Of a stretch of DNA of 64,000 nucleotides, positions 28,171 to 49,609 are shown piece after piece. A program made the position numbers and the translations under genes. The number at the start of each line of letters is the position of its first letter. Position 1 is the stretch's first letter. The notes under the pieces were generated by a model, which saw nothing but the letters and a program-made list of their open reading frames with translations, was not told the DNA's origin and did no database searches. Source of the DNA: Malacoraja senta (lineage: Eukaryota); NCBI GenBank assembly GCA_038087875.1, contig CM075990.1, positions 8,000,001-8,064,000 on the forward strand. Direction: 5' to 3'.

Positions 28171-30599
28171 AATTTATATAGATTATCTTTTGAGATACCT
28201 GTGCATGCAAGCAATAAGCTGAATGTAGTGGTCAGTGATACCTGGTCCATGGGTTCAGAACTTGGTTCTTGGTTTCTTGGTTTCTTGGTCCTCCAAAATA
28301 TTCCAAATGGAATTTTTTTTAAATTTTAATTTGTATTTATTTTTTATTTTTATATATTTTTTGTTTTGTTTTTTTTGTTTTTGTTTTGTTTAAATCTTTT
28401 TATTTGAATTTCACAGCAATTTGCATACATACTATGATAACAGACAGTGACAGTCAAGGCACAATTGTGCAACAGTATGTAAGCGACCCTCAAAACCCTT
28501 ACCCTTACCCACCTTCAACCCACCCGAATCAGGTCAGAACCAAACGGGGACAAACAACACTCACATACGTACACATCCACACACATATGGTAAGATAACC
28601 GAAACAAAAAGTACTTAAAAAAAAATAAAAAAAATAAAAAATTGGGGTCACTGATAACAGTAAATAAGTAAGTAATTAAATAAATAATTGTGGGGAGGGG
28701 GGGGGGGGTTAAGGGGAAAGCAGCTGCTGTAGAGCAAAACAATGGTGGAGAACACTCAGTCCTCTTCCGAGTCCGGGGACAAGTTGAGAGAGTTAACAAG
28801 TTCCAAGAAAGGGTTCCATGTATCTAGGAATGTCTTGGTAGAGCCTTTGAGAGAGAACCTAAGTTTTTCAAGCTTTAAATTGTAAAGCACCTCCTTAATC
28901 CAACGGGCGTGTGTCGGGGGACAGGTGAGCCTCCAGTTAAGCAAGATCAGTCTCCGGGCTAACAAGGTTGTAAAAGCTAGGACCTGTTTCACCGCAACAG
29001 AGAGGTTGGTGTTGGGAGGGGTACCGAAAATGGCTGACATTGGGTTTGGAGGAATAGTCTGGTCGTAGGCTCTGCTTATCAATTCGAAAGCACTCCTCCA
29101 AAAGGCTGCTAGCTTAGGGCAAGACCAAAACATATGGCTATGGTTGGCAGGGGATTGATGACATCTGTTGCAGGTGTCCCTAACAGCGGGGTACATTCTA
29201 GATAATCTTGCATTTGTGTAGTGGACTTTGTGAAGGACTTTGCATTGGATTAGGCCATGACGGGCACATATGGAGGAAGAATGGATCAAATCCAAGGCAG
29301 AGTCCCATTGCTGGTCTGTTAGTTTCGTATTCAGCTCTCCCTCCCACGCAGCTTTTAATGAGGTATGAGGTTTCAATATAACCGACCCTAGCAAATTATA
29401 CAAAATAGAGATGCATTTCTTCCGGTTGGGATCTAGAGCTAAGATGGTATCGGCCAGGGTTTCAGGGGGGCGATTTGGGAAATAGGGGAATGTCTTCTTC
29501 ACAAAATCCCTAATCTGGAAAAACCGAAAAAGGTGGGAGTTTGGGAGGCTGTAGTTGGACGAGAGCTCCACGAAGGACGAAAAGATGCCATCCTTGTATA
29601 GGTTTTTGATACTACTGATACCCTTGCTATGCCAGATTTTGAATGCGTGGTGTGTGCTTGAAGGTTTAAAGATGTGATTTTTAAGCAGTGAGGTCAGGAT
29701 GGAAGGGCCTTGTAAACCGAAGTTTTTCCTGAGTTGACTCCATATCTTGAGCGAGAGGGACGCAATTTGGCTTGCACACACAGATGTTATAGAAAGGGGG
29801 AGTTGGGAGCATAGGACAGACCACAACGGGAGACGTGAACTCGCCTTTTCCATGTATACCCAGGTCGGTAGGTGGTCGCAATCATCATTCATCCAATACA
29901 GGAATTTTTGCAAGTTAGCTGCCCAATAGTATCGCCTAAAGTCAGGAAGTGCCAAACCGCCGTCACTCTTAGGAGACTGCAGTATCGCCTTTCGGATTCT
30001 AGCCGGTTTGCTACCCCATAAAAATTTAGATATTGTCCTTTCTAATTTATCAAAAAAAGATTTAGTGATAAGTATAGGGACGTGCTGGAAAAGATACAGG
30101 AATTCGGGTAGGACGACCATCTTGACCAGATTTATCCGGCCCACGAGGGATAGCGGTAAAACTGACCAGCGGTCAAAATCTCTTTCGGCTTTCTCAACCA
30201 GAGGCAGAAAGTTTGTGCGGAACATATCAGATAAGGGTGTTGTGATAAAAACGCCGAGATAGCGAAACCCGTCCTCTGCCCATTTGAATGAGGTTAAAGA
30301 GCGAGGGAGCTGCTTAGCCGGTAAGTTAATCGGTAATAGCTCACTCTTTTGGTAGTTAAGTTTATAACCAGAGTACGCACCAAACCGTTCTAAAATATTC
30401 GTAATCACAGGGAGAGAACTGACTGGATTCGAGATGTACAGGAGCAGGTCATCCGCATACAATGAGACTTTATGAGTTGTGTCGAACCGTGTAATACCTT
30501 TAAAGCCCTTCTCTGAGCGTAACCAGACCGCTAGGGATTCTATCGCGACAGCAAACAGGAGTGGTGATAATGGGCAACCCTGTCTGGTACCTCTCTGAA

Positions 30600-30651
30600 G
30601 GGGTCAAGGAAAGAGCGTTCACGCCGCGGCCCTGTTTCCACCAATCTTTCC
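30600..30651 (+). ncRNA. HDV-like self-cleaving ribozyme (minimal P4)
   Basis: P1 GGGGTC/GGCCCT (G1-U wobble), P2 GGAAAGA/TCTTTCC, P3 GCG/CGC, L3 TTCACGC, G, TTTCCA, J4/2 CCAA. Confidence 0.78.
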
Positions 30652-30765
30652 ACCACCACGCACAAGAAGCAACAAGACAGACACCATTGTATGCAGATGC
30701 AGAGAAGTGTGTTCAGCTTTGGTTGAACAACTTCTAATCTTGTGTGAGGACTCGATAAGAAGAAG
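30600..30765 (+). mobile_element. Short ribozyme-headed non-autonomous retroposon (Ingi/Vingi-like), family A
   Basis: 166 bp between TSD ACCTCTCTGAA (30589-30599 and 30766-30776); ends CTCGATAAGAAGAAG; no Pol III A/B boxes. The left boundary has GGG microhomology, so the TSD could be read as up to 14 bp. Confidence 0.8.
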
Positions 30766-32285
30766 ACCTCTCTGAAGGGTGAAGTGGGGCGACAGTGTGT
30801 CGTTTGTTTGTACTGAGGCCACCGGGGACGAGTATAATAGACTGACCCAAAGAATAAAACTCTTACCGAGGCCAAACCTGTCCATCGCCTCATATAGGTA
30901 CCTCCACTCGACCCTGTCGAAAGCTTTTTCGGCGTCGAGGGAGACCACTATCTCCGGGGTCTCACCACGCGGAGAATGGATGATGTTAAGGAGACGCCTA
31001 GTATTGTGGGAAGACTGTCGGCCTGGTATGAACCCTGTTTGATCTAACGAGATAATAGAGGGCATCACTCGTTGAAGACGGAGCGCAAGGGCTTTAGAGA
31101 GGATTTTGAGGTCCACATTCAGGAGTGAAATTGGTCTATACCTACTATAAAGCAGAGGATCTTTCTCCTTTTTAAGAATTAGGGAGATAGTAGCCCACGA
31201 CAAGGTGGGCGGTAGGCGACGATGTAAAAACGCCTCATTGTACATATCTCTCGGGACTGGTGCGAGGAGAGCAGAGAAAGCTTTGTAATATTCTACAGTG
31301 AAGCCGTCAGGGCCGGGTGACTTTCCGCTTTGCAGCGATGTGATGGCTGCTTGGACCTCAGCAACAGTTATGGGACCACCCAAGTCTCTCGTGGCTTCAT
31401 CGTCAATTCGGGGATACGTCATACTACTGAACATGTCACCTGCAGTGGGAGGACAGTCGGAAGCGTATAGTTCAGCGTAGAATTTAGCAAATGCTTCATT
31501 AATTCTAAGAGGATCAGTATGAATCTCCCCTAAGCTGGATCTAATGGCTGGAATTAGCCGTGAAGTCGCCTCTGTTCTGGCCTGATGGGCCAAAAGCTTC
31601 CCAGCTTTATCCCCAGATTCAAAAAAGTGTTGCCTAGATTTAAGCAGTCGTAGCTTGGCTTTAATAGTAGACGTGAGGTCAAAGTCTGTTTGTAACCTAA
31701 GACGTTCTCTATAAAGGTTAGGGTCTGGGTGAGATGCATATTTGTCATCAATGTCCTTTATTTTTTGTAACAGGTCTGCCATTTGGGACGTCTCGGTTCT
31801 TTTCAGGTTGGAGACAAAAGAGATAAGTTGGCCCCTAATATAGGCTTTTGAAGCTTCCCAGAGTATACCTCTTTCTATGTCCGGCGAGTCATTCAGCTCA
31901 AAATATAAGGTGATTTGGGAGTGCAAGAATTGCATGTAGTGGACCTCTGCTAATAATGAGGAGTTGAACCTCCACTTAAAGGGGTTAGTTCGTTTAAGAA
32001 AATGGAGATCGAGGGAGGTCGCAGCGTGATCTGATATTACGATACTATGATACTCGCTGGATTTGATTTTGGAGAGCAGTCTGTTATCTAAGAGAAAGAA
32101 GTCTATACGGGTATAGGTACGGTGCACGTGGGAAAAAAATGAAAATAATTTAGTCGTGGGGAATGTAAATCTCCATGGGTCTGTGAGCCCAAGTTGTTTG
32201 ACAAAAGCATGCAGAGTCTTACCTGATTTAGTTAAAGTAGAGGCTTTCCAAATGGAATTTAAACTGGAGGTGGTGGAGGGAGGAC

Positions 32286-33985
32286 TTAAGCCAGAAAGGG
32301 TTTTTGGGAAGAAAGAGCTACCTTAAATTTAGTTGCATCTGGTTGGGTAACTATAGTAGGGTGGAGATTATTCCATGCTTTAATTGTGCGGGGGAAGAAT
32401 GAATTGCTGTACACATCTGTCTTGGTAGCTGGAATCACAAATTGTATCGAATGCCCTTGTCTGCTCCTAGTTGGTTTGGGTTTGGTGTAGGTCTTGTAAT
32501 CTATGTCAAGCTGACCATTTTGTAAAAACAGGTCAAACGGTGAGCTTCACGTCTGTCTTGGAGAGGGTTCCACCCCAGAGAATTCAGAAGTTTGGTAACA
32601 CTCGCTTCTCTCTCATAGGTGTTAGTAACAAATCGAGCTGCCTGTCCTTGGACACGTTCGATGGAAGAAATGTTTTTATTTGTGTATGGGTCCCATGCTG
32701 CAACTGTGTAGTCCAAATGAGGTCTAACGAGGGTGAAGTATAGCTTCTCCATGACAGAAGTTGAACAATGATGAAAGTTGCACCTCAGAAAATTTAGGAC
32801 ACCTGTTGCTTTCACCGTTGCATGATGAGTCTGACCATTCCAGCGCAGATCATTCTGCAATTTGATGCCAAGATACTTGGTTTGTTTGGATTCTTCAAGG
32901 GCGGTACCAAGTATATTGTACGATGTTTCGCCTGGATTCCTCTTTCTGGTGACACGCATGGTTTCACATTTGGAAGGGTTGAACTGCATGCCCCATTGTT
33001 GTGACCACTCAACCATTGTATCGAGATCCTTTTGGAGAGCATCTTCATCATCAGCTGACTTAATTGGACGGTACAGCAAACAATCATCAGCGAATAGTCT
33101 GGTCGTGCTTGCGACTTTTTCATGGATGTCGTTTATGTAAAGCAAAAACAGATGTGGGCCAAGTACTGTGCCCTGAGGTGTACCACTCAACACTGGATGC
33201 CAATTGGAGCTCTTTCCGTTCACACACACACGCTGAAGACGTTTTGTCAGGAAACTGGAAATCCATCGTTTCGTGTTGGAACGAATACCATAGAAGCCAA
33301 GCTTCCGAAGCAGTCTCTGGTGTGGGATGACATCAAATGCTTTAGAAAAGTCCAGCACTACTAAATCCGTGATGACGTTACCATCAAGATGTTTGGCCCG
33401 GTCATTTGTCGTCAGGATAAGCTGAGACTCACATGATCTATGCCTCCTAAACGCATGTTGGTTGTCAGCAAGAATATTATGTTTGCTCACGTGTCGCATC
33501 AGATTATTATCAATTACATGCTCCAGTAATTTGCAGCAAGTACTTGTTAATGAAACAGGACGATAATTTGCTGGGTTGGTGGTTGAACCCTTCTTAAAGA
33601 GAAGAGTGATGTTAGCCTTCCTCCAATCCAGCGGAACATCACCTGAGTCAAGCGATTGTTGGAAAATGAACTGCAAAACTGGAGCCAGTTCTTCGGCCGC
33701 GATCTTGAGGGTTTGATTCTGTATCTGATCTGGTCCAATTGCTTTTGTGGTATTGATGTTGAGCAATAACTTCTTGACACCTTCAACCTCAATTTTAATA
33801 GCAGGCATATCAGCATACGGGCTGGGCGGTAGAACTGGAAATGATGAAGGCTCCATATCTTCCCGGGTGAAAACGTGTTGAAATTGGTTTGCAAGAGCTT
33901 CTGCTTTCGCCTGGTCCTCAGTGATCAGACAGTTGTTCACTTTCAGCATCTGGACACCAGTGTTGTCTGTCCATCTGGATTTCAC
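32286..33985 (-). pseudogene. RT ORF of the CR1-group LINE, frameshifted near 32515
   Basis: NYRPVSLTS, LDFSKAFD, SGTPQGTVLGP, FADD, LVRPHLDY..WDPY; continues in another frame as GHSIQF...NSFFPRTIKAWNNL to a stop near 32286. Confidence 0.85.
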
Positions 33986-34974
33986 ATATCTCCAAAAAGC
34001 CTTGGGTTGCTCGCCCCCAAGAATAGAAGAAACATGTTGTCTATGAGCACTCCTAATAGCACGATCGACTTGCTTTCGTACTCTAGTAAAATTGTCCCAG
34101 TTTTGTACCCCTTTTTTTGGTACGGATATAAGACTTCTCTTTCTTACTGCAGAGACGTTTCAGTTTTGCCGAAAACCAAGGAGGACACATACGGCCCTTA
34201 ATGAGTTTTTGAGGAACATGATTTGTAACAATATTATTTAAAGAGTTTCTCAGCCACACCCAGCTGTCTTTTACGGATCTTTTATCTGGTTGCAGGTTGA
34301 AGATCTGCACATGGCTCTGATGGTCAACTTGGAGCTCCGCTGTATTTTTAGAGTGGAGTATATTTATAGCACACTTCTCATTGCGAACACTAGGATACCC
34401 GGTGTAACCAAAAAATAAATTGAATTCTTTGAACAAATACGTATATTGTTCGTCTTGAAGTTAGTATCCTATGCAGTGGTCATGAAACTACAAGGAAGGA
34501 GAAATCGCACGTACAAAGATGAATGCCGATTATTTTAGATAGGAGGTAAGAACACAATGTATTTCTACCCACACATGGAGGTGAATGTGTTTGCTTAATA
34601 TTGAACAATGCAATTGTCCAATTTTTGAAATAAAATCAAGATTAAGAGCAAAAGGCAAATTTGATTTTCTCTCTGATGCACCAAAGAGTCTTTAGAATAA
34701 TCTTCTCGAGCACAGAACCCAGCTTCATGGAGTTTGGGTCTCAGGCAGATAAACATACATCAAACTGACAAGCAGCTAATTTAATGCAGCAATAAATAAG
34801 TTATTTAAATTTGGATTTTATTGCATTGAAAACTTTGGAAGATTTAATATATCCATAGTTACCTATTTAATGTTATTGTGGGCGGGAGTGGTGGTACCAG
34901 GGACTTACAGTGGTCATATAGCTCCATTGGGTGTGGTGATTGTGAATGTGGCTCCATAGTGACGTTAGAGTGAG

Positions 34975-35218
34975 AACTGCAGATGCTGGTTATACACCGG
35001 TTAGACACAAAGTGCTGGAGTAACTCAGCGGGACAGGCAGCATCTCTGGAGAGAAGGAATGGGTGACGTTTCAGGTCGAGACCCTCTCAGTCTGAAGAAG
35101 GGTCACAACCCGAAACGTCACCCATTCCTTCTCCCCAGAGATGCTGCCTGTCCCGCTGAGTTACTCCAGCACTTTGTGTCTACAGTGTAAACCAACATCT
35201 GCAGTTCCTTCCTACACA
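34975..35218. mobile_element. Inverted Penelope termini with a hammerhead motif at 35092-35119
   Basis: About 110-bp mirrored arms; CTGAAGA-A-GGGT-CACA-ACCC-GAAACGTC. Confidence 0.8.
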
Positions 35219-35562
35219 CTTAGAGTTGGTACCGCTGGTCTAAGTAAAGGTGTTTTCCAAATGAGATCCCCGATCTCGTGCAGCTCCAGCGGGAGCAGAT
35301 ATGGTGAGAATCTCTTTCAACCTCCAGAGGCCCAAATGTACATCTGGTTTTGTTTTGCAGTTCCTTCGACAGATTGACAGAAAGCCCATTCATTTGGTTA
35401 ATCTGCAGTCTGTTCACCTGCAGAGATGGTGTGTGATCATATCTCAGTTTCCCCCATCCCTGACTCTCAGTCTGATGAGGAGGCTCGACCCCAAACGTCA
35501 CCTATCCGTGTTCTCCAGAGATGCTGCCTGTCCCACTGAGTTGCTCCTGTACTTTGTGTCTA

Positions 35563-35875
35563 TTTAGTTTAGTTAAAGATACAGCACGGAAACAGGCCCT
35601 TCGGCCCACCGGGTCCGCGCCGACCAGCGATCCCTGCACATTAACACTATCCTACACCCACTAGGGACCATTTCTTTTACATTTACCAAGCCAATTAACC
35701 TCCAAACCTGCACGTCTTTGGAGTGTGGGAGGAAACCGAAGATCTCGGAGAAAACTCACGGGGAGAACGTACAAACTCCTTACAGACAGCACCCGTAGTT
35801 TGGATTGAACCCGGGTCTCCGGTGCTGCATTCACTGTAAGGCAGCAACTCTAACGCTGTGCCACTATGACCGCCC
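35563..35875 (-). mobile_element. Full-length V-SINE (HE1-like)
   Basis: tttagtttag tail through the ggattgaacccggg head complement. Confidence 0.88.
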
Positions 35876-36751
35876 ATCTATCTTCATCCCATCTATATTT
35901 GGTCTATCTTCGGTGTTAACCAGTAACTGAAGTTCCTTCCTACACGTGGTGTGTGATCAGTCAATGAACTGCTTTGCGCAGGTTGCTGCCAGCGTGCAGG
36001 ATTAGTGTAACCTATGAAGTTCCCACATAAACATTTATAAATAATATTTAATTTTCACATCTTTGCAGTTGCAATCAAAATTCTGCATAAGTTCAGCTAT
36101 AAAGCTGGGCTTCGATATTGCAATTTTTATAATGGCCTTATAATGGTCAGAAGGTCAGAAGAGATAGGAGAAGAATTAGGCCATTCGGCCCATCAAGTCT
36201 ACTCCGCCATTCAATCATGTCTGATCTATCTCTCCCACCTAACCCCATTGTCCTGCCTTCTCCTCATAACCCATCACACCCGTACTAATCACGAGTATCT
36301 CTGCCTTAAAAATATCCATTGACTTGGCCTCCACAGCCTTCTTGTATCTGGGAGTCTATCTCTGTGGGAAATGCTGTTGAATTTTGGAGGGAATTTCTAG
36401 TGGGACAATCATATGGCTAATCTGAAGAAGGGTCTCAACCCGAAACGTCACCCATTCCTTCTCCCCAGCGATGCTGCCTGTCCCGCTGAGTTACTCCAGC
36501 ATTTTGTGTCTATCAGGCCAGATAGCCTGGGAAATTGCATCACATTTGTGAACTAAATTGGAGTTGAACGAAGGTCTCTTTATGCATGCCTTGTCTAGTA
36601 GGGAGAAGGATCTGTCTCAGTTTATTTTCTGTGCTGTGCAACAATTTGCCGTCCTCTTAAAGTAACCTACACAAAGAGTTGGAAACAGACAATCTCTGAC
36701 AAGGGCAGAGAGCTGCTACATTCACCAGTCTGCGTTCACTCCTGACTGCCT

Positions 36752-38435
36752 GTTCAAGTTCAAGTGAATTTATTGTCATGTTTCCCTGATAGGACAATGA
36801 AATTCTTGCTTTGCTTCAGCACACAGAACATAGCAGTCATTGACTACAAAACAGATCAGTGTGTCCATATACCATTCTATAAATAAATACACACATGAAT
36901 AAATAAACTGATAAAGTGCAAATAACAGATAATGGGTTATTAATGATCAGAGTTTTGTCCGAGCCAGGTTTAATAGCCTGATGGCTGTGGGGAAGTAGCT
37001 ATTTCTGAACCTGGTCGTTGCAGTCTTCAGGCTCCTGTACCTTCTACCTGAAGGTAGCAGGGAGATGAGTGTGTGGCCAGGATGGTGTGGGTCCTTGATG
37101 ATACTGCCAGCCTTTTTGAGGCAGCGACTGCGATAGATCCCCTCGATGGAAGGGAGGTCAGAGCCGATGATGGACTGGGCAGTGTTTACTACTTGTTGTA
37201 GTCTTTTCCTCTCCAGGGCGCTCAAGTTGCCGAACCAAGCCACGATGCAACCGGTCAGCATGCTCTCTACTGTGCACCTGTAGAAGTTAGAGAGAGTCCT
37301 CCTTGACAAACCGACTCTCCGTAATCTCCTCAGGAAGTAGAGGCGCTGATGTGCTTTCTTGATAATTGCATTTGTGTTCTCAGACCAGGAAAGATCTTCA
37401 GAGATGTGCACGCCCAGGAATTTGAAGCTCTTGACACTTTCAACCATCGACCCATTGATATAAACGGGACTATGGGTCCCCATCCTACTCCTTCCAAAGT
37501 CCACAATCAGTTCCTTGGTTTTGCTGGTGTTGAGGGCCAGGTTATTGTGCTGGCTCCATATGGACAGTTGCTTGATCTCTCTTCTATACTCTGACTCATC
37601 CCCATCAGTGATACGTCCCACTACAGTGGTGTCGTCAGCGAACTTGATAATGGAGTTCGCACTGTGACCGGCTACGCAGTCATGAGTATAGAGTGAGTAC
37701 AGCAGGGGGCTGAGCACGAAGCCTTGAGGTGCGCTCGTGCTGATTGTTATCGAGGCTGACACATTTCCACCAATACGAACAGACTGTGGTCTGTGAATGA
37801 GGAAGTCGAGGATCCAATTGCAGAGGGATGCACAGAGACCCAGTTCTGCGAGTTTGGTAACCAGATTGGAGGGGATGATTGTGTTAAATGCCGAGCTGTA
37901 ATCGATGAATAACAGCCTGACATATGAGTTTTTGTTGTCCAAGTGGTCCAGAGCGGAGTGGAGGGCCAGCGAGATCGCATCCACTGTTGATCTGTTGTGG
38001 CGGTAAGCGAACCGCAGTGGGTCCAGGTTTTTGTCGAGGTAGGAGTTTATTTGCTCCATGATCAACCTCTCAAAGCACTTCATCACCACAGGTGTTAGTG
38101 CCACTGGTCGATAGTCATTGAGGCACGTCACCTTACTCTTCTTGGGCACTGGTATAATTGATGCCCTTTTAAAGCAGGTGGGGACCTCAGACCTCAGAAG
38201 TGAGAGGTTGAAAATATCCGTAAAAACTCCAGCCAGTTGGTCCGCACAGGTTTTTAGAACACGACCGGGTATACCATCAGGTCCAGGCGCTTTTCGAGGG
38301 TTCACCCCTCTGAAGGATATCCTGACGTTGGCCTCTGTGACTGAGACTGAAATACCATCTCAGCGAATGGGGGCTCGGGAAGGCACATCAGTATTCTCCC
38401 TATCAAAGCGTGCGTAAAACGCATTGAGCTCATCG
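36752..38435 (-). mobile_element. 5'-truncated Rex1/Babar LINE inserted into an old V-SINE
   Basis: RT ORF plus upstream DELNAFYARFD (one in-frame stop); (TTGAAC)n tail near 36752; SINE head at 36700-36750 resumes at 38436 (gtgctgtttatgtggagtttgcatg). Confidence 0.9.
36947..38305 (-). CDS. Rex1/Babar reverse transcriptase (truncated copy)
   Basis: [59 protein letters not shown]. Confidence 0.85.
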
Positions 38436-40019
38436 TGCTGTTTATGTGGAGTTTGCATGTTGTCCTCATGAAGTTAAGAGGATCTCCTTGATGCCTACTG
38501 TGAATTGCCCCTAATGTGGAGATGGGAGGTGGAGTCTGAGGTCACTGATGGGAAAGTACGAAGAATAAAAATAGGATTACAGTTATGTAATTGAATGTTT
38601 GAGGCCTTGGTGGGCCAAAGGGCCTGTTTATATGCTGTATGACCCCATGATGAATCACCATTAACAAGGGGGCATCACTGATATCTGTACAATGCCCAAT
38701 CTACCACTAAAACTGCAGTAGATCATTCTCAATATTTTTATTGGTACAGTGCAATTTAAATTTGAGATGTAGAAGAGTTCGATTACACAATATAGAATTA
38801 ATGATAGCTAAATCCCAATACATTTAATGCTCTGTTCTTGTTGGAATTAATTGAAAGGTACAGCATTGAAACAGGCCCTTTGGCTCACCGAGTCCACTCC
38901 GACCATCGATTACCCTTTCACACTAGTTCTATGTTATCCCGGTTTCGCATTCACTCCTTGCACATTAAGGACAATTTACAGAGGCTACCTCACTTACAAA
39001 CCCGCACGTCTTTGGGCTGTGAGAGGAAACCGGTGTACACAGGGGAACCCTGCGCAGACACAGTGAGAACGAGCAAACTGCACACACACACAATACCAGA
39101 GGTCAGGACTGATCCTGGGTCTCTGGCGCTGTGAGGCAGCAACTCTACCAGCTATGCCACTGGTGTCTGTTCGAAGCTGGTGTCTGTCTGTTTGAGTTAA
39201 CATGTACTTTGACAGTCAGTAAAAGTTGTTGGCTTGAAAGAAAATTGCTGTATTTGTATATGTGTTGTAAAGAAACATATTCTCTGCGGTGATCAAAGAG
39301 GCGATGGATCTTATGTATGTTCTTGGCAAGGCTCTCTCTAATAGACTGTCATTGCAGATAATAACCATGAATAGCAACCTGGCAGATTTATCTCCTCCCA
39401 GCTTCGAAATGTTACCCTTGATTACAGGACCATTGACCAACTCAGCACAGTGCAAGGCTTTATCTGAATGTTGTTTAGTGCTGCCTCTCGCTCTAAGAAG
39501 CAGCAGTGGCTATAAACAAAAGGTTTGGTTGCAGGCTTCTGTGTGCAATAGTGCAGTGCAGCGATCTGCAGTGTGGACACTTCCTTCCGCAGGCACCTCT
39601 GTCTCATTGCACTGCGGTTGCCTCCCACTGCAGTGCAGACCTTGGCCTTGGCACAGTCAGATTTAAATTGCTGCAATCACGGAAACTGGCACCAGTGAGA
39701 GCCCATTGATGCTGGCCATTCACCACCGTAAATCTGGTAAATGTACTGTTGCTTCTGGCTGGACAAGATGCAGCTGTCAGGAGAGAGTCGCACCATATTT
39801 TCAATTTTGGACTTTGAATTTTGTGTTATTAACTAATTACGCTTACTTGATTGCTAATTATGCACCGTGGCAAACTGTCCTACAAGCTCAGGGCGCTGTA
39901 AAACAAGACCGGTTTTTTAAAATGAGGAAACCTCATCAGATCGAACAACCTTTCAGAGCCACAATGTGCTCATATGACATGTTGTCCAGGTGACTGTCAT
40001 GACTGCATAGAGACGGAGA

Positions 40020-40550
40020 CATAGAACAATAGAGAAGGGTTCAGAGAAGATTTACAGGGTTGTTGCCAGGACTAGAGGGTCTAAGCTATATGGAGAGATT
40101 TGAGTAGGCTGGGACTCTATTCCTTGGAGCGCAGGAGGATGAGGGGTGATCTTATAGAGGTGTATAAAATCATGAGAGGAATAGATCGGGTAGATGCACA
40201 GAGTCTCTCGCCCCAGAGTAGGGGAATCGAGGACCAGAGGATATAGGTTTAAGGTGAAGGGGAAAAGATTTAATAGGAATCTGAGGGGTAACGTTTTCAC
40301 ACAAAGGGTGGTGGGTGTATGGAACAAGGTGCCAGAGGAGGTAGTTGAGGCAGGGACCATCCCATCGTTTAAAAAACAGTTAGACAGGTACATGGATAGG
40401 ACAGGTTTGGAGGGATATGGACCAAGTGCAGGCAGGTGGGACTAGAGTCACTGGGACATGTTGGCCAGTGTGGGCAAGTTAACCATATTGGGCCGACGTG
40501 GGCAAGTTGGGCCGAAGGGCCTGTTTCCACACTGTATCACTCTTTGACTC
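40020..40550 (+). mobile_element. CR1 3' fragment, followed tail-to-tail by a minus-strand CR1 3' end (40550-40700)
   Basis: RRMRGDLIEVYKIMRGIDRVDA...TQRVVGVWN. Confidence 0.85.
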
Positions 40551-42037
40551 AGCACTGAAACAGCCCTTCGGCCGAACTTGTCCACGCCGACCAAGATGCC
40601 CATCTACGCTTGTCCCACCTGCCTGCTTTTAGCCCATAACCCTCTAAACCTTTCCTATCCATACACCTGTCTGAAATGTGTTTTAAAATGTTGTTTTATG
40701 CAGGTTTATTATTTTAAGGAATTCAACACAAATTGGCAAAATGTCACTGTACCTTAATCGATACGCAGGAACGGGGTACTGATTGGGGATGATCATATTG
40801 AATTGCGGTGCTGGCTCGAAAGGGCCGAATGGCCTAGTCCTGCACCTATTGTCTATTGTCTATTGATACACGTGACAATAAACAGACCTTTAAACCTATG
40901 AAAACTAGGTTTGTGCAAAAAAAATATGTCAAAAGCAATTTAATGCGGGTAGTGGCTATCAAAGAAGCAGAAGATAGACACAACTCAGTGAGACAGGCAG
41001 CATCTCTGGAGAAAAGGAATGGCTGACATTTTGGGTCGAGACCCTTCATCAAAGAAGCAGATGCAAGTACTTCACAAAATGGGCGTCAGGGAGTTGGGGT
41101 CTTCATAGACTTGACGCTCAACAGTAAAAAACAGGTAATGGTGCTGAACATGAGGCTACAAGGGTGGTGTAGAACAGACGATTAGTTTAATCTCAAACAC
41201 ATCCGGAATGCTAGACTGGAAAGAATTGTACTTTTGAAGAGATCTGTGTAGAGGTGACTTTGGAGGTGTATCAGACAGTGAAAATTTATGTAAAACTATA
41301 TATTTAAAGCAGTGGAAGAGGTCATCGATTTGAATTTGTAAATGGCAAACTCATGATGTATAACATTACCATTTATCAGACAACAGAATCGTTCTCTCAC
41401 CAGCGAGAGAGCAGTCCTGGCCTGCCTTCTACCTCCTTCAAACTATCTTTAATCGGACTTTGGACACAAAATGCTGGAGTAACCCGGCGGGAAAGGCAGC
41501 ATCTCTGGAGAGAAGGAATGGGTGATGTTTCGAGTTGAGACCCTTCTTCAGACTGAAGAAGGCTTTCGATCCAAAATGTCACCCATTCTTTCTCTGCAGA
41601 GATGGTGCCTGTCCCGCAGAGTTACTCCAGAATTTTGTGTCTATCTTCGTCGTAAACCAGCATCTGTAGTTCCTTCCCACACATTTAATGAGACTTTACT
41701 GGACTTTACCTTGCATTAAACGCTATACCCTTTATCCTGTATCTGTACACTGTGGATGGCTTGGTTGTAATCATGTATAGTCTTTTCACTGACTGGATAG
41801 CAAGTGACAAAGAGCTTTTTGCTGTATCTCAGTACATGTGACAATAATAAACTAATCTCAACGAAGGCTTGAAGAGTGTTGGGAATGGAGTCCCATTAAA
41901 CCTGATGAACATATGAGATGAAATGAGGCTTTCCCTGGGGGGAGAATACACTTTGGTTGGATGAACCAAAGGAAGTTCGTCACCTTTAATTCTCTTGTGA
42001 TCAGGTATAACTAAAGGACAATGCAGAAATCTATCTA

Positions 42038-43561
42038 TCTATCTATATACTTTTAAAACTCTCTGGCTGTACGTCTGTACGTCTGTACGTCTGTACGTCC
42101 GTACGCTGCCTTTGATACCGCCCCTGGCCCACACAGCGGAAAGGCCCATATTTTTTACCATTTCCAAAGAGATGACATTTATCTTTACGAATAGCCACTC
42201 CTGATTAAATTCGGTCCTGTTTATGTACACGTTTTTTAATAAAATCCATCCCCCCCCCCATGTGATTTTCTCCGATTTTCTCCGATTTTCTCCGAAAACA
42301 ACGGCATCTTTTTTTCGCCGATTTTCTCCGATTATTTCCGAAAACGACGCCATCTTTTTTTCAGCAGATTTTCACCCGGGGTCTGAAGCACGTTCGGGAA
42401 CAACACCCCGGGGTGTCAAGCACTTTCGGGGACCAGACCCAACGGGTCTGCACTTGGTCTAGTATACTTATAAAACTCTCATCTTGTCCTCTTCCGGTTT
42501 GCATTGTTTTAAAATTTGCGCAAAAATGGTACCCGATAGCACTACGATTTTTCGCCACCTTACTCGCCATTCTTCTGTGCTTAAAGTGCAACAAGTTTTG
42601 TTCCAATCGGTGGAACAGTACAAAAGTTATGAAAGTTTAAAAATAGTAAAAACTGCCCCTTCCGGCACCCACTGTCAATCACCGGCGGCGAGGAGAATAA
42701 AGCTGAAGGAGCGGAGTGAGCAGCGTGCGGGGTGAGAGCAGCGTGCGGGCTGTTTCAGCGGAGACCAGCATGATGAGCCGGGAGCCGCTGAGTGGAACCG
42801 AGAGCCATTGAGTGAAGCCGGAGCCAGACCGGGAGCTATTGAGTGGGGCCGAAAGCTGAAGGTGCGGCGTGAGCAGAGTGCGGGGTGAGCAGAGTGCGAG
42901 CTGCATCTGCGGCGACCATCTCTCCCCACCACCCCTCCCCCACACACCCCCTCCCCCACACACCCCCACACCCCCTTCCTCCATACATCCCCCCTCCCCC
43001 ACATACCCCCCTCACCCACATAACCCCTCCCCACACACACACCCTCCCCACACCCTCTCCCCACACAACCCCCTCCCCCACACACCCCACCTCCCCCACA
43101 CACACCACCTCCCCCACACACATTCCCCTCACCCACACCCCCCCTCCCCCACACACCCCTCCTCCCCGGGTGCAGGATGCTCCCCACTCCTCCATCGGCC
43201 CCAGACAGCCCCCACCTGAAGAATGCAACAAGAGACGATACACGTACACACTTCACTTCCCACCCCACACGCCCCTTCCCCACACCACCCTCCCTGACAC
43301 CCCACCCCACGCTCTCCCCCCCTCACCTCCACCCCCTGCCCACACACACCCCCACTCCCCTCCTCTCCTCCCACACATGAAGAGGAGGGGGGGGGGGAAA
43401 TGCTGGGGGATGAGGGGAAATGAGCCGTGCCTGTGCAGTTAGGGGCTATGGGTGAGTGGTGGAATATTGCGTTGGGGAATGGGTTGCATTGGGGGAACGG
43501 GTTGCGTTGGGGGACCAGGCCTCCCGTGTGACTGAGACCTAATGGGTCCCACTTAGTCTAG
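42038..43561 (+). mobile_element. Non-autonomous Helitron (outer)
   Basis: 5' TCTA|TATACTTATAAAACTCTC, split by the inner copy; imperfect 3' hairpin gagacc-taat-gggtccc, then CTAG (43558-43561) followed by T; no TSD; C/A-rich low-complexity interior. Confidence 0.75.
42042..42462 (+). mobile_element. Non-autonomous Helitron (inner)
   Basis: 5' TCTATATACTTTTAAAACTCTC, (CTGTACGT)n microsatellite, hairpin CAGACCC-AAC-GGGTCTG (42434-42450), CTAG end, inserted between A and T. Confidence 0.8.
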
Positions 43562-43629
43562 TATACTCTAAATTTGTATTTCCACTGTGTCTATCATGAG
43601 CTAAAGATGTTCTAAAACTCCTTCCAAAG

Positions 43630-43750
43630 AAGTACAGTCACTGTCGTGCTGCAGCCAATTTCCACGCACTGAGCTCCCATATAACAGCAGCATTATTAAT
43701 GACAGGTAATCTGCTTTAGAGTAATTGAGCGATATTGGCCAAGGCACTCG
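43630..43750 (-). mobile_element. Probable DeuSINE (SacSINE1/AmnSINE1-related) remnant
   Basis: gcagccaatttccacgcactgagctcccat...aatgacaggtaatctg...atattggccaaggcac resembles the Deu-domain complement (from memory). Confidence 0.5.
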
Positions 43751-44964
43751 GTAAGGTGGTGGTTACATTTATGGAATGGGAATTAACATTGGATGAAAGT
43801 AATAAAGGCAGAATTGAATTTAAACTGATGTCATTGAATATATCTGGAATTAAAGGAAATACTCAGACCCGGTAACAATAACTATAACACAAATGAATGT
43901 CTTTAAAAACTTAACTGGTTCATTAATGTCCTTTAGGTAAGAGAATCTGGTATTCCCACACAATCTGGACTACATGTGACTTCAGTCCCACTCTCCTCTA
44001 CCTTTCATTCCCCCACCCTACAATCAGTCTTAAGAAGGGTCACCTATCTATGTTCTCCAGATATGCTGCCTGACCTATTGTTCCTCCAGCACTTTGGGTC
44101 TTTTTCAGGTAACATGGGGATGGATAACACCCGCTCTAAAATTGAACCTCACGACAATGCAATCTCCCTCCGTTTTTTCTGTAGTGGGATTTGAACCGAC
44201 AACCTAACAAGCTCCAATACAAGTGACACTGCAGGCATTCAATACACCAAGGAGCTGCACTAGCAAACAAATGTAGCAGGTATGGCATAATAGCTCAGTG
44301 CAATAAATATTTACACAGTGAAGAACGCTGGATAATTTATAACAATTTATTTTGTCATTCTCAGGAGCATAGATATTAATCATATTCCACTAAAGACCTG
44401 CAGTTATTTATAATACTCCAAGTATTTTTCCAATTGGAAAAAAAAAATCATTATTTGTGTCGTTTTTAATAATTACATGGTTTGTTTTTCTTATGGCATT
44501 CATCAGAGAAAATCCGCTATTATTGCATATTAATATACTTGTACGTCATCGAGTTATGTTATCAGTAATGATTCAGTGTTAGAATGTGCAGCCCAAACTG
44601 AACACTACCTGATGTACACGACATATGCGCTTTAAATTAGTGACAAGCCTTTGTTAGTTGATTGCATAGAATTATATTTTATAGAAGCAGGCTGCTCAGC
44701 CAGCTGGTGGGCTCCACATGTGTTTTCTCCACCCGAAATGTGTCATGAGGAGAGATTTATCAAACTGAGCCTAAATTCGCAAGAGCTCAGAAGAATGGGA
44801 GGTGATTTCTTTGAAACGTACAATCTCCTTGCAGGGTTTGACAAGGTCGATGCGGAGTTCCTGCTTCCCCCGGATGGAGAGTCTAGAACCAGGCACAGTT
44901 TCCAAAATATGTGGTTAGCCATTTAATAATGAGAATAAAAAGTGAAATTTGTACATCGTACATC

Positions 44965-45390
44965 GTGATAACAGGCCCATCGACCCAACTTGCCCACACC
45001 AACCAACATGTCCCAGCTACACTAGTCCCACCTGCCTTCATTTGACACATATCCCTCTAAACCTGTCCTATCCATTCACCCGTCTAAAGGTTTCATAAAC
45101 ATTGCAATAGTACCTACCTCAACTACCTCGCCCAGCAGCTCTTTCCATGCACCCACCACCCTTAGTGTGAAAAGCGTACTCCTCAGGTTCCTATTAAATC
45201 TTTCCTTTACTATGTCCTCTGGTTCACGATCCCCCTACTCTTGGCAAGAGACTCCGTGCATCTACTGTATCTATTCCTCTCATGATTTTGTACGCCTCTA
45301 TAAGATCACCCCTCATCCTCCTGCGCTCTAAGGAATAGAGTCTCAGCCTGCTCAACCTCTCCCCATAGCTCGAATCCTGGCAACATTTAG
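44965..45390 (-). mobile_element. CR1 3' fragment
   Basis: Reverse complement of the 40060-40520 family. Confidence 0.85.
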
Positions 45391-45994
45391 ATTCCAGCAT
45401 TTGCAGTTTTCTGATTTTCGGAGCTAAGATGAAATCTTCTCACCTGAGAGCAGTGAGTATTTAGCATTCTTGACCTCAGGGCCATGTATAGGCACTGCCA
45501 TTGAGTATAATCAGGGCAGAGATAATAAAAAAATATATATTAGGGGAATGAAGGGATATGTAATAATGTGGCACGGAGGTAGAAGATCGACTAATATATA
45601 ACGGAAAAGTGGAGCAGGCATGATGAACTGGATGACCTACTCTTGCTTATACTTTATATGTTCTTACTTTCAATCTTTCGCAGCAATAATGTCAAAGATC
45701 AAGATGTAGTCAGAAGTCTAAACAGTTTATTGTCATTGTCAACCTTCACTCCTGGATTTCTAAATCCAGACTGACACACGATGCAGGCTTGATGTTGATT
45801 CATTGTCAGTATTCCTATTCTTCAGATGAGTTCATAAATTGAAGTCCCACCAGCCTATTCCTATGGGAATCAATGATCCCACACACACTACCGGAGAAAT
45901 ATTCAGGTGATTTTCTGTTTTGCACGCTAAAACTGTTCAAGAAATTGAACAATATTTCCTTGCAAAACAGAATGAAGTAATTCGGCCCATTGAG

Positions 45995-47050
45995 TTTTGT
46001 TTAGAGATACAGCGTGGAAACAGGCCCTTCAGCCCACTGACCAGCGATCCCCTCACATGACACTACCCTACACACACTAGGGACAATTTTACATTTATAC
46101 CAAGCCAATTAATCTACCAATCTGTACGTCTTTAGAGTGTAGGAGGAAACCGAATATCTTGGAGAAAACCCACGCAGGTCACGGGGAGAACGTACAAACT
46201 CGGTACGGACAAGCACCCGTAGTCAGGATCGAACCCGGGCTCTCTGGCGCTGTAAAAGGTCTGTCTCACTGTGCGAGCTGACCCACGAGTGACCCCGAGT
46301 TTAAAACAAATTTAACTCGTGGTAATCACGTACAATTAACGTAGCGGGAACGTCGGAACTCGTGGACGCAACTTAGCGACTCTTGGCGCTAACGGGAGGT
46401 ACACGTGAAACTTGTTAACTCTTGCAAAAGTTCAAACAAATCGTGGAAAGGTTCAAACATGTTTGAACTTTTCCATGAGTAAAATGTACTCTTGAGGTTA
46501 AAATTTGAAACATTTTAAACTCGTTGTAAGAACGTAGTGGCCCGTGTCTCTCTCTCCCTCCCTCCCTCTCACACAGGCTGAGAGACTCTGCCTCTGTGAG
46601 TGTACGTCCCTTTCTCCCCCTCTCCCTGGGCTCTATACGCTCATTGTTTCCTATGAGAGACTTTGAAAAATAAGAATCACATTTCACACATTGATTTTAT
46701 GACTTTTAATTCTTAACATGACCATAATCACAATCTTTTACACCACCCATCACCACTCAGTTTTTTTTAACATGTGATGATTTTTAAACACTTCGATATA
46801 CATTGTTGCCTCAAGATTAACGGGAGAGGAACTTGGTACACTCGGGAGACGAACTTGGAACATCGCAGAAATGAGAAGTAAACGGGAAACTTAGACATAC
46901 CCGTGGGAACTCGGTTAAACTCGGGATCATAAACTTGTAGTATCGTACGCAACCACGAGTCTTTCACTCTGGGTCACTCGTGGGTCAACTTGCACAGTGA
47001 GACAGCCCTTTAAGGCAGTAGATCTACCGCTGCGCCACCGTGCCACCCGA
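45995..47050 (-). mobile_element. V-SINE split by a DNA transposon
   Basis: ...ctctggcgctgTAA | insert | TAAggcagtagatctaccgctgcgccaccgtgcc. Confidence 0.85.
46256..47010. mobile_element. PIF/Harbinger non-autonomous DNA transposon (755 bp)
   Basis: 45-bp TIRs (46256-46300 and 46966-47010, 41/45 match) and TAA TSD (46253-46255, 47011-47013). Confidence 0.88.
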
Positions 47051-47502
47051 CTTCCTCCCAGCTCTCCGAACATTCCCCTAAACTTCCATTTATTCATCGA
47101 TAAGCTATTCAGTCTCGTATATGCCATTCACCAGCAACTTCCAGCCACTGATTCTCCAATCACATACCTACACGAGGGGTAATTTACAGTGTGCTATACA
47201 CTTTTAGGATTTGGGTTTGTAATCTCTGTCAGTTGGATTTGACTGTGGGTTACTTTGTCCTCTTCTATTATCCAGATAGTTTAATCTATAGTTCACCACC
47301 ATGACAATCCTCGCCCAACCCTATCAGGGACTGTTTACATTCCTTTCTTTGCACCAGTCTCTCTTTTTGTGGTATTGTTCACTTTCTCTCCTTCTCACTG
47401 CATCCATTAACCCAATCCAATATAATATATTAGCTCTGTCTCCACAGATGCCGCCTAACCTGGAGCAATTACAGCACTTTCAGCTTCCATTTCATGTTCG
47501 AC

Positions 47503-47745
47503 CTGAAGAAGGAATTTCAAGAAGGGTCTCGACCTGAAACGTCACCTATGCCTTTTCTCCAGAGGTGCTGTCTGATCTGCTGAGTTACTCCAGCCTTTTG
47601 TGTCTATCTTCGGGTTAAGCCAGCATCTGCAGTCAGTCTGAAGAAGGGTCTCGACCCGAAACGTTACCCATTCCTTCTCTCCAGAGATGCTGCCTGTCCC
47701 GCTGAGTTTCTCCAGCATTTTGTGTCCATCTGCAGTTCTTTCCTA
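47503..47745 (+). mobile_element. Tandem Penelope terminal repeats with hammerhead motifs
   Basis: Direct repeats of about 118 bp; hammerhead motifs at 47521-47543 (partial) and 47638-47665. Confidence 0.75.
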
Positions 47746-48124
47746 CCCATTTTCTACCACGGTTGTTTAGGTGACTGCACTAAGACCAGTGATTTAAACA
47801 CTGACCATTATGTCTATTTACCAGGTCTGCCAGTTTGCAAATTACAGTTTAATGTTAAGTACGCAGTTAAATCATTCATGCATTGTGCCTTGCTTTTGTT
47901 AATTAGAAGCATCTTTGCCATTGTAAATCTGTACTTTTATCTGCATCTTTCTGTTGATGGCCCATGAACTAATAAACATCTCCAAGTGTCCAAATTCATC
48001 TTGTGCTTAGACTTCAATGTAATGACAAATAATGAGCAGTCTCTCTGAGGATCAACGATCTCCGCAAACTAACACTAGCATATACACTCTGGGGACAATT
48101 TACAATTATACCGAGCCAATTAGT

Positions 48125-48395
48125 ATGGGTTCGATCCTGATTACGGGTGCTGTCTTGTTGGGTGGAGTTTGTATGTTCTTCCTATGACCTGCTTTCTCCG
48201 GGTTTTCTCCGGGTGCTCCGGTTTCCTCCCACACTCCAAAGACATACAGGTTTGTAGGTTAATTGGCTTGGCATAATTGTAAATTGTCCCCAGTGTGTGT
48301 AGGATAGTGTTAGTGCGCGGGGATCGCTGGTTGGGGCGGATTGGCGGACGAAGGGCCTGTTTCCACGTTGTATCCCTAAAACTAAAAACTAAACT
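48125..48395 (+). mobile_element. V-SINE (5'-truncated)
   Basis: Starts at the B-box gggttcgatcctga; ctaaaactaaaaactaaac tail. Confidence 0.85.
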
Positions 48396-48493
48396 CGAGG
48401 CACTGACATGCCTTCTTTGTGATTATATCTGGGTGCTTGGTCCAGGACAGTTCATCCAATATCAGTTTGGGATCAAATAATTTCAGGAGGTTT

Positions 48494-48635
48494 CTTCTTC
48501 TTCTTCTTTCGTGTGGCGTGCACAGCCTAAAGTTGTTGGGCAACTTGTTCTATATGATCTTCCGTTTGTGCACGTCGAGTTGATTGCATTAGTCGAAACA
48601 GGGTGGACCACGTGAAGGTTGCAATCTTCCACCCC
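48494..48635 (-). mobile_element. Short ribozyme-headed non-autonomous retroposon (Ingi/Vingi-like), family B
   Basis: 142 bp between TSD TCAGGAGGTTT/TCATGAGGTTT (48483-48493, 48636-48646, one mismatch); ends CACACGAAAGAAGAAGAAGAAG. Confidence 0.82.
48582..48635 (-). ncRNA. HDV-like self-cleaving ribozyme (minimal P4)
   Basis: P1 GGGGTGG/CCACCCT, P2 GATTGCA/TGCAATC, P3 ACC/GGT, L3 TTCACGT, G, TTTCGA, J4/2 CTAA. Confidence 0.82.
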
Positions 48636-49609
48636 TCATGAGGTTTGGGAGGTAATCAGAGTGCATTGCCTAATCCCAAATACGGATACAGATGCCAAAT
48701 GCAGATTTGTTTGTAAAATTATAGCGTTAACCAGGAACAACTGTATGAGGCTGAGTGATCTGAGGGTATAGATGTGAAGTAGAGGGTTGTGTTGGAAGGA
48801 ACTGCAGATGCTGGTTTACACCGATGATAGACACAAAATGCTGAGTGAGACAGGCAGCATCTCTGGATAGAAGGAATGGGTGACGTTTTGGGTCCAGACC
48901 CTTCTTTCTGTATATTTTCCAGAGATTTCTTGTTGACCCACAGAGCTACTCCAGCATTCAGTTTCTTTATTTGTAAAACAGCATTAGAAGTTCCTTGTTT
49001 CTAATAAATATAGTCTTGTGCATGTTCAATATTTATATTCCAGACCTAGGATTCTGTCTTCTTAATAATCTTATTGACATGTTGCATGTTAAGAGCATTA
49101 TTCATGCTGCAAGAGTTGCCTTCACTTTGAATAATTTGACTTGCAATTCCTTTCTCTATTCATTCAAGATTTTGCAATTCTCCACACTGCTAATACTCTT
49201 GTCTATTTTTAGATGTCATGGTTCTTGTCACAGTTCAGAACATCCTAAGGCATCATTGTTTTTTCTTTAATTTCTCTTTAACGGATGTAATCGAACGTAT
49301 AATAAGTAATAAACAGCCTAACACAAACTCATTTTGATCCTCATTGACCACATCCAATCATCTCTCTGTGGTCACATCTTCCTCTCAACTAAATTACCAT
49401 CATTCGCACTTTATATTTCTTCGATGTTTAAAAAAATATTTTCTGAAAATCTACCTTCCCTTTACACAACGCCTTAACTGCCATGCAGCGCTATGATCCT
49501 GATAAATTCAGATAAACTTTCCAATTTCTAATTCAAGGGAAACTAAGATAACATCGCATGGAACTTGCCAGTAAGATTGTTGCTATTCAGATTATTTTGC
49601 TATTCCGTA

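What the first reader, a model, noticed from the sequence alone, without database searches (positions are those of the whole stretch)
30600..48635. Two divergent ~150-bp retroposons share an HDV-like ribozyme head, body stem and (AAG)n tail
Seen: elements A (30600-30765, +) and B (48494-48635, -) have little linear similarity but the same layout. Every ribozyme helix differs in sequence yet stays paired: P1 GGGGTC/GGCCCT vs GGGGTGG/CCACCCT, P2 GGAAAGA/TCTTTCC vs GATTGCA/TGCAATC, P3 GCG/CGC vs ACC/GGT. The unpaired core is conserved (AA linker, L3 TTCACGY, TGTTTCSA, J4/2 CYAA). Both start exactly at the predicted G1 cleavage position, end in CGAWA..GAAGAAG, have 11-bp TSDs and lack Pol III boxes. 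Established: HDV-like ribozymes process the 5' ends of Ingi/L1Tc, R2 and RTE retrotransposons, and Ingi/Vingi elements generate short non-autonomous derivatives. Inference: these are promoterless SINE-like elements that cut themselves out of read-through transcripts and borrow a Vingi-type RT. I cannot tell whether these families are already catalogued.
Basis: partly seen in the sequence, partly recalled or inferred. Interest (0 to 1): 0.85.

Follow-up and report, generated by a model that had tools for sequence, protein, structure and literature searches.

The report
Self-cutting mini-retroposons from Vingi LINEs
Two roughly 150-base jumping elements, present in thousands of copies, begin exactly at a compact fold that likely cuts their RNA free; one is the two joined ends of a longer, likely Vingi-type retrotransposon found in the same genome, and a published Vingi start is so close to the mammalian CPEB3 ribozyme that this memory-linked RNA likely came from such an element.

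Summary
Observation confirmed. Elements A and B are high-copy retroposons: 8,089 ribozyme-core matches against 12 in the control. Copies start at G1 and carry target-site duplications of about 11-13 bp.

B is not a free-standing SINE. It is the first 72 and last ~44 bases of a ~3.1-kb single-ORF LINE (APE + RT, no RNase H; Vingi-type) found here. A's 3' half looks like the end of a related LINE; its parent was not found. Two more Vingi-type families also start with HDV-like folds, and cognate 5' and 3' ends can pair.

In single-cell RNA of a relative, 1,695 of 3,348 reads leave B at G1, mostly into template-switch oligo. That fits self-cleavage or a +1 promoter; cleavage was not assayed.

The kind is known (NARTc/RIME, R2 SIDE, Vingi derivatives); this scan saw similar elements in fungi. 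New: P4-less ribozymes in a vertebrate, and ribozymes in Vingi. By-product: the published Vingi-2_Gav 5' end matches the CPEB3 ribozyme at 52 of 54 positions outside the P4 tip. I found no paper linking them.

The parts
30589..30599 (+). 5' target-site duplication of A (11 bp)
30600..30651 (+). A head: minimal (P4-less) HDV-like ribozyme fold; predicted cut before G30600; catalytic-position C at 30641
   Evidence: activity not assayed
30659..30667 (+). A 5' arm of the body stem, complementary to 30738-30746
   Evidence: 44 of 1000 shuffles as stable
30684..30737 (+). probable relic of a LINE ORF C-terminus (17 codons and a stop), in register with the C-terminus of family V3
   Evidence: short, judged by eye
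30738..30765 (+). A 3' UTR: stem arm, GGACTCGA motif shared with V3, (AAG)3 tail
30766..30776 (+). 3' target-site duplication of A
48636..48646 (-). 5' target-site duplication of B (11 bp)
48582..48635 (-). B head: minimal HDV-like ribozyme fold; predicted cut before G48635; catalytic-position C at 48592
   Evidence: RNA 5' ends at 48635 in a relative
48564..48635 (-). B bases 1-72 = 5' end of LINE V1 (67 of 71 identical to L242), including stem arm 48567-48574
48538..48563 (-). B junction/filler with short duplications; no LINE match
48494..48537 (-). B 3' part = 3' end of LINE V1 (36 of 38 identical to L193): ORF stop, stem arm 48517-48524, (AAG)5 tail
48483..48493 (-). 3' target-site duplication of B (one mismatch)

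Best explanation
A and B are non-autonomous retroposons whose RNA likely cuts itself free at base 1 with a minimal HDV-like ribozyme and is likely copied by a Vingi-type LINE protein; B is the two joined ends of such a LINE found in this genome, and A is likely built the same way from a parent not found. Steps: (1) a copy is transcribed inside a host RNA or from its own head (transcription shown in a relative; source inferred). (2) The head folds and cuts before G1 (fold and G1 5' ends shown; chemistry inferred from HDV-like ribozymes). (3) The bases just after the ribozyme pair with the 3' UTR, so both ends form one recognition unit; this would explain why derivatives keep both ends (complementarity shown in V1 and V3, weak in V4; role inferred). 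(4) The LINE's APE/RT protein primes at the (AAG)n tail and inserts the copy with an 11-13 bp duplication (products shown; enzyme inferred).
For: 5' ends: 27 of 28 (A) and 25 of 27 (B) independent top copies begin GGGG, with unrelated upstream DNA (identity 0.29 and 0.26); a TSD abuts G1 in 26 of 28 and 23 of 27. Copies picked by the body alone still carry the head in 25 of 28 (A) and 22 of 29 (B) by a strict pattern. Parent of B: L230, L242 and L228 run from B's head into an APE ORF; five 5'-inverted copies end at the head; copies of its 3' end carry B's tail. Domains: PF14529 and RVT_1, no RNase H. Helix changes between A, B, V3 and V4 keep pairing. Frequent non-CpG changes in B fall at unpaired 8 and 45 or give U-A/U-G at 32; the catalytic C is kept in 56 of 56 B and 51 of 55 A copies. 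B's core equals that of a tRNA-adjacent, theta-like ribozyme in a metagenome (L152). RNA: in run X21, 1,695 of 3,348 laid reads have a loose end at G1 whose consensus (agreement 0.74) is the template-switch oligo with its own three G kept (oligo identity in PMC11239685). Poly(T) loose ends sit at the tail.
Against: No cleavage assay. In two bulk oligo-dT runs, 952 and 700 reads continue upstream of G1 into mixed sequence, and no begin/end pile-up is listed; both directions are equal there, so many may be antisense. G1 ends could come from a capped +1 start, from cutting during library preparation, or partly from oligo mis-priming at the G-run. The reads are from a related organism, and only B was laid. 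A's parent was not seen in three exclusion-pattern searches (100 of 502, 100 of 188 and 100 of 193 matches listed). The V1 copies I translated are broken, and V1 copies are more diverged (about 85-96%) than the youngest B copies (99%), so the current helper of B is not identified. A's P1 has only 6 bp. End pairing is weak for A (44 of 1000) and V4 (40 and 201 of 1000).
Confidence: 0.85

Rival explanations
1. The head works mainly as an internal RNA polymerase II promoter starting at +1, like Pr77 of L1Tc. The ribozyme fold is real but secondary, and the G1 ends are capped start sites.
For: L1Tc Pr77 is both promoter and ribozyme and starts at +1 (PMC3383444 passages). Template switching works well on capped ends (recalled). 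Many bulk reads run uncut through G1.
Against: Primary sequence is not kept between A, B, V3 and V4, while pairing and the catalytic C are. That is what an RNA fold predicts, not a DNA promoter.
Confidence: 0.2
2. A is a chimera or is cross-mobilised: a Vingi-2-type head on a V3-like tail, now copied by V3 rather than by its own lost parent.
For: A shares the last motif and the C-terminal register with V3, which is young (97% between L281 and L282) and has a 986-aa open frame. No parent was found.
Against: A's own ends pair with each other (-16.2 kcal/mol) but not with V3's ends (-6.8 and -9.9). V3's head differs from A's (P4 present, other L3). This refines the main reading rather than replacing it.
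Confidence: 0.4
3. The elements are mobilised by the abundant Nimb/I-type LINEs, which also end in (AAG)n.
For: Nimb copies with long open frames and (AAG)n tails are common.
Against: Nimb 3' ends share nothing with A or B beyond the AAG run, while V1 shares both ends with B.
Confidence: 0.04
4. The fold is an inactive relic, and the fixed 5' end only reflects complete reverse transcription of a very short RNA.
For: No assay; some correctly folded SIDER heads were inactive (PMC4035085 passages).
Against: Master-lineage changes keep pairing and the catalytic C. The RNA must still get its G1 end somehow.
Confidence: 0.08

Closest known systems
NARTc/RIME and SIDERs of the L1Tc/ingi clade (PMC4035085, PMC3383444; passages read)
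   Same: Short internally deleted derivatives that keep the LINE's 5' HDV-like ribozyme and 3' end.
   Different: Trypanosomatid Ingi clade; that ribozyme has a P4. Here a vertebrate, a helper without RNase H, and no P4.
Bipartite non-autonomous Vingi derivatives, e.g. of Vingi-1_EE (PMC5786205, PMC4494074; passages read; the original 2011 paper was not held)
   Same: 5' plus 3' ends of a Vingi LINE joined by internal deletion.
   Different: [quoted passage not shown] I saw no mention of 5'-3' end pairing in the passages read.
R2 SIDE elements (PMC3414825; search listing and abstract start only)
   Same: Ribozyme-headed internal-deletion derivatives.
   Different: R2 is rDNA-specific with a restriction-like endonuclease; these elements are dispersed and have TSDs.
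Minimal HDV-like and theta ribozymes (PMC10879173; passages read)
   Same: No P4; B's P3, L3, linker and J4/2 match a tRNA-adjacent example found here (L152).
   Different: Described from metagenomes and phages. That paper's eukaryotic set (human, mouse, protists and other complete genomes) gave no reported hits. Here there are thousands of copies heading vertebrate retroposons.
Mammalian CPEB3 ribozyme (Rfam RF00622; PMC8233481 supplement passage)
   Same: A matches 26 of 34 positions of the Rfam consensus shown; older A copies share an exact 18-nt run over P3-L3-P3-P1.
   Different: CPEB3 is a single intronic copy with a P4 and another P2. A is a distant relative; the near-identical match is to crocodilian Vingi-2_Gav.

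Membership tests
HDV-like ribozyme | P1, P2 and P3 paired in nested double-pseudoknot order, G1 wobble, L3 of 7 nt, P1.1 partner G | tested here: met
   A's P1 has 6 bp rather than 7
HDV-like ribozyme | catalytic C first in J4/2 (C-N-A-A), conserved | tested here: met
   56 of 56 B and 51 of 55 A copies; N varies
HDV-like ribozyme | compensatory change between independent families | tested here: met
   A, B/V1, V3 and V4 differ in P1, P2 and P3 yet pair (single mismatches in decayed copies; hand-set registers, no R-scape)
HDV-like ribozyme | Mg2+-dependent self-cleavage before G1, lost in C-to-U | not testable with these tools
   only indirect: cDNA ends at G1
Bipartite non-autonomous LINE | 5' end and 3' end both match one autonomous LINE (element B) | tested here: met
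Bipartite non-autonomous LINE | same for element A | tested here: inconclusive
   3' half resembles V3's C-terminus and tail; no parent
Vingi clade (helper V1) | compact single ORF, APE + RT, no RNase H (PMC13708176 passage) | tested here: met
   intact relative P0002 and V3 lack RNase H, Nimb has it
Vingi clade (helper V1) | RT groups with named Repbase Vingi proteins | not testable with these tools
   no named Vingi, Ingi or RTE protein in hand; V1-V4 group apart from Nimb and CR1-type rows, bootstrap 100; RTE not excluded by tree, only by recalled motifs
SINE (Pol III, small-RNA head) | tRNA-, 5S- or 7SL-derived head with A and B boxes | tested here: not met
   no A-box pattern; no Rfam family at gathering score; B's head is LINE-derived
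Catalogued Dfam/Repbase family | exact entry exists | not testable with these tools
   no repeat library available

The most novel reading that the evidence does not exclude
Vingi retrotransposons as a clade start with HDV-like ribozymes and pair their two ends. In this fish lineage, P4-less versions have spread in thousands of ~150-nt self-cutting retroposons, and the mammalian CPEB3 ribozyme is an exapted 5' end of a Vingi-2-type element. Basis for the last point, by eye from printed sequences: Vingi-2_Gav matches elephant CPEB3 at 38 of 40 and then 14 of 14 positions and differs only in the distal P4. The Vingi-derived part of alligator SINE2-1_AMi has the same P4 stem as CPEB3 (57 of 66 overall). 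These helices vary freely among A, B, V3 and V4, so function alone does not force the match.
Probability: 0.65. Interest if true: 0.88.

Novelty: new variant of a known kind. Interest (0 to 1): 0.76.

Why it matters
It extends ribozyme-based 5' processing to Vingi-type LINEs, which are now used as RNA gene writers whose templates carry both UTRs (PMC13708176 passages). The ribozyme and the 5'-3' pairing give a testable reason for that design. It places minimal HDV-like ribozymes, so far described from phages and metagenomes, in a vertebrate genome at more than 8,000 sites, where sense copies in introns or UTRs could cut host RNAs. It also names a concrete donor for the CPEB3 ribozyme; the review passage read suggests domestication only in general terms (PMC7761336).

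Tried and rejected
Rfam at gathering score: nothing.

PF14529 search for the helper gave Nimb/I and CR1-type LINEs without a ribozyme head; rejected as parents. A tail pattern excluding B's own 3' UTR gave 5 hits, 4 B variants and one probable truncated B. Three searches for A's parent found only A variants among the listed matches. V2 has a (TAAA)n tail and no match to A or B; its 5' end was not seen.

Metagenome core scan: 9 hits and no LINE; 4 without a fold, 4 copies of one host-like locus, 1 theta-like. PDB: only L1, R2 and group II intron RTs. The first tree was spoiled by badly cut L1 and other outgroup rows and was rerun without the two long rows and four homologues. The strict descriptor missed the V3 and V4 heads; I found them by eye from the TSDs.

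No listed holder of B was on record as RNA (no evidence either way). Kojima 2011 and Ruminski 2011 were not held; the latter may include elements now called Vingi.

Print searches: Vingi + ribozyme, 6 papers, none stating it in the three read by passage; CPEB3 + Vingi, 0; skate + SINE + ribozyme + chondrichthyan, 0; searches gave no donor for CPEB3 (93 was swamped by reptile terms). PMC8233481's main text has no 'origin' or 'transpos' word. Patents, Repbase notes and subscription papers were not searchable.
Full report
Observation. A descriptor for the nested double pseudoknot finds these two sites and no other in the window. Forty simulated windows gave 1 hit and no compact one. Rfam has no match at gathering score; below it, A resembles CPEB3 (E 5.5e-4) and B weakly an HDV-like family (E 0.89). 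The window lies in a 1.94-Gb assembly. That the host is a cartilaginous fish is my inference from recalled repeat types.

Families. A and B have at least 1,185 and 1,614 candidates. A 16-letter pattern over P1-linker-J4/2 matches 8,089 times against 12 for the reversed control. The top 30 copies are 97.5% (A) and 99.1% (B) identical, so both were active recently; older subfamilies exist. After removing duplicate flanks, 27 of 28 A and 25 of 27 B copies begin GGGG, upstream DNA is unrelated, and a TSD abuts G1 in 26 of 28 and 23 of 27 (one mismatch was allowed, which inflates lengths by about one base). Copies chosen by the body alone keep the head in 25 of 28 and 22 of 29 by a strict pattern; the misses are decayed or truncated heads. 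In B, recurrent changes outside CpG sites fall in J1/2, at the free J4/2 base, or swap U-A for U-G in P1; the catalytic C is present in 56 of 56 B and 51 of 55 A copies.

Parent of B. A pattern holding B's 3' end but excluding its head gave 3,866 matches; 3 of the 100 listed had an ORF C-terminus upstream. Walking from there gave family V1: at least 518 candidates, mostly 5'-truncated. L230, L242 and L228 run from B's head into an endonuclease ORF; L242 is near full length with its own TSD; five 5'-inverted copies end at the head. B's bases 2-72 match L242 at 67 of 71, and its 3' part matches L193 at 36 of 38. V1 is about 3.1 kb, single ORF, PF14529 plus RVT_1. Its intact relative P0002 (80% over the RT) has no RNase H, whereas Nimb has. 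This fits the definition of Vingi in PMC13708176 (passages). No named Vingi protein was available; V1-V4 and eight database homologues form a group apart from Nimb and CR1-type rows (bootstrap 100). The V1 copies translated (L155, L179, L228, L230, L242) are broken, so the helper of the youngest B copies is not identified.

Other families and A. The RT search showed three more Vingi-type families. Read from their TSDs, V3 (one copy, one P1 mismatch and a P2 bulge) and V4 (two copies) also start with HDV-like folds, with a long P4; V2's start was not seen. A's 3' half translates to 17 residues in register with V3's C-terminus and shares its last motif, but A's head is not V3's. Three searches found no LINE with A's ends among the listed matches. 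The 30 bases after the ribozyme pair with the last 35 bases better than shuffles in B (1 of 1000), V1 (4), V3 (6), weakly in A (44) and V4 (40, 201), and not in four cross pairs (135-755). The 'body stem' is therefore likely a LINE end-to-end pairing kept by the derivatives.

RNA. I laid three raw RNA runs of a related organism and one contig set on B. In single-cell run X21, 1,695 of 3,348 reads have a loose end at G1 whose consensus (agreement 0.74) is the template-switch oligo (PMC11239685 table), with its three G added to the element's four. That is the pattern of a real RNA end rather than mis-priming, though only the consensus is shown. Reads on the element's strand are 3-4 times deeper over the head, and poly(T) ends sit at the tail. 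Against: in two bulk runs 952 and 700 reads continue upstream into mixed DNA, and no begin/end pile-up is listed. The data cannot separate cleavage in the cell, cleavage in the RT buffer and a capped +1 start.

Known and new. Ribozyme-headed internal-deletion derivatives are known from L1Tc/ingi and R2, and bipartite derivatives from Vingi (passages). PMC5786205 does not list Vingi among ribozyme-bearing clades, and my searches found no such statement; two key papers were not held. P4-less ribozymes are described from phages and metagenomes, and B's core matches a tRNA-adjacent example. Earlier notes of this scan report ribozyme-headed retroposons in fungi and a probable diatom, not this sequence.

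CPEB3. The supplement of PMC5786205 prints the 5' end of gharial Vingi-2_Gav and alligator SINE2-1_AMi (one passage); the supplement of PMC8233481 prints elephant CPEB3 (passages of a file cut when stored). By eye, Vingi-2_Gav matches CPEB3 at 38 of 40 and then 14 of 14 positions, differing only in the distal P4; the SINE has CPEB3's P4 stem. Such identity in freely varying helices points to common descent, with the mobile element the likely donor; human DNA keeps Vingi traces. A is a more distant relative (26 of 34). CPEB3 plus Vingi gave 0 papers; one review proposes domestication without a donor. This rests on published sequences, not on the window, and the direction of transfer is inferred.

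Verdict. Real; a new variant of a known kind. The main mechanism is likely (0.85) but unassayed. Interest 0.76, much of it from the Vingi-CPEB3 link.

Noticed in passing
window 28756-32322 (-): Element A sits inside an L1/Tx1-like ORF2 on the opposite strand and splits its reading frame (clade from recalled motifs).
   Followed up: no
L011:1417-1675: An A copy inserted at the tail of an internally deleted B copy.
   Followed up: no
L152: Minimal HDV-like ribozyme directly behind a tRNA-like sequence in a tRNA cluster, theta-like, with B's core.
   Followed up: partly
L148, L150, L151, L154: One host-like metagenome locus with the same P3-L3-linker-J4/2 core, short AAG runs on both sides and no long ORF; possibly another ribozyme-headed element.
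   Followed up: partly
L281 (V3), L283 and L284 (V4): Near full-length Vingi-type LINEs with TSDs and P4-bearing HDV-like heads; V3 has a 986-aa open frame.
   Followed up: partly
L222, L225, L227, L237, L245, L247, L286: Frequent 5' inversions in Vingi-type copies, as from twin priming.
   Followed up: no
L061-L098, L104-L106, L110: Young two-ORF Nimb/I-type LINEs with RNase H, many 1,277-aa open frames and (AAG)n tails.
   Followed up: partly
upstream base of G1 in top copies: G is rare at -1 (1 of 28 A, 3 of 27 B) and T is commonest; probably target preference.
   Followed up: no
window 51911-55207 (-): A 1,098-aa open frame of an L1-like element in AT-rich DNA.
   Followed up: no
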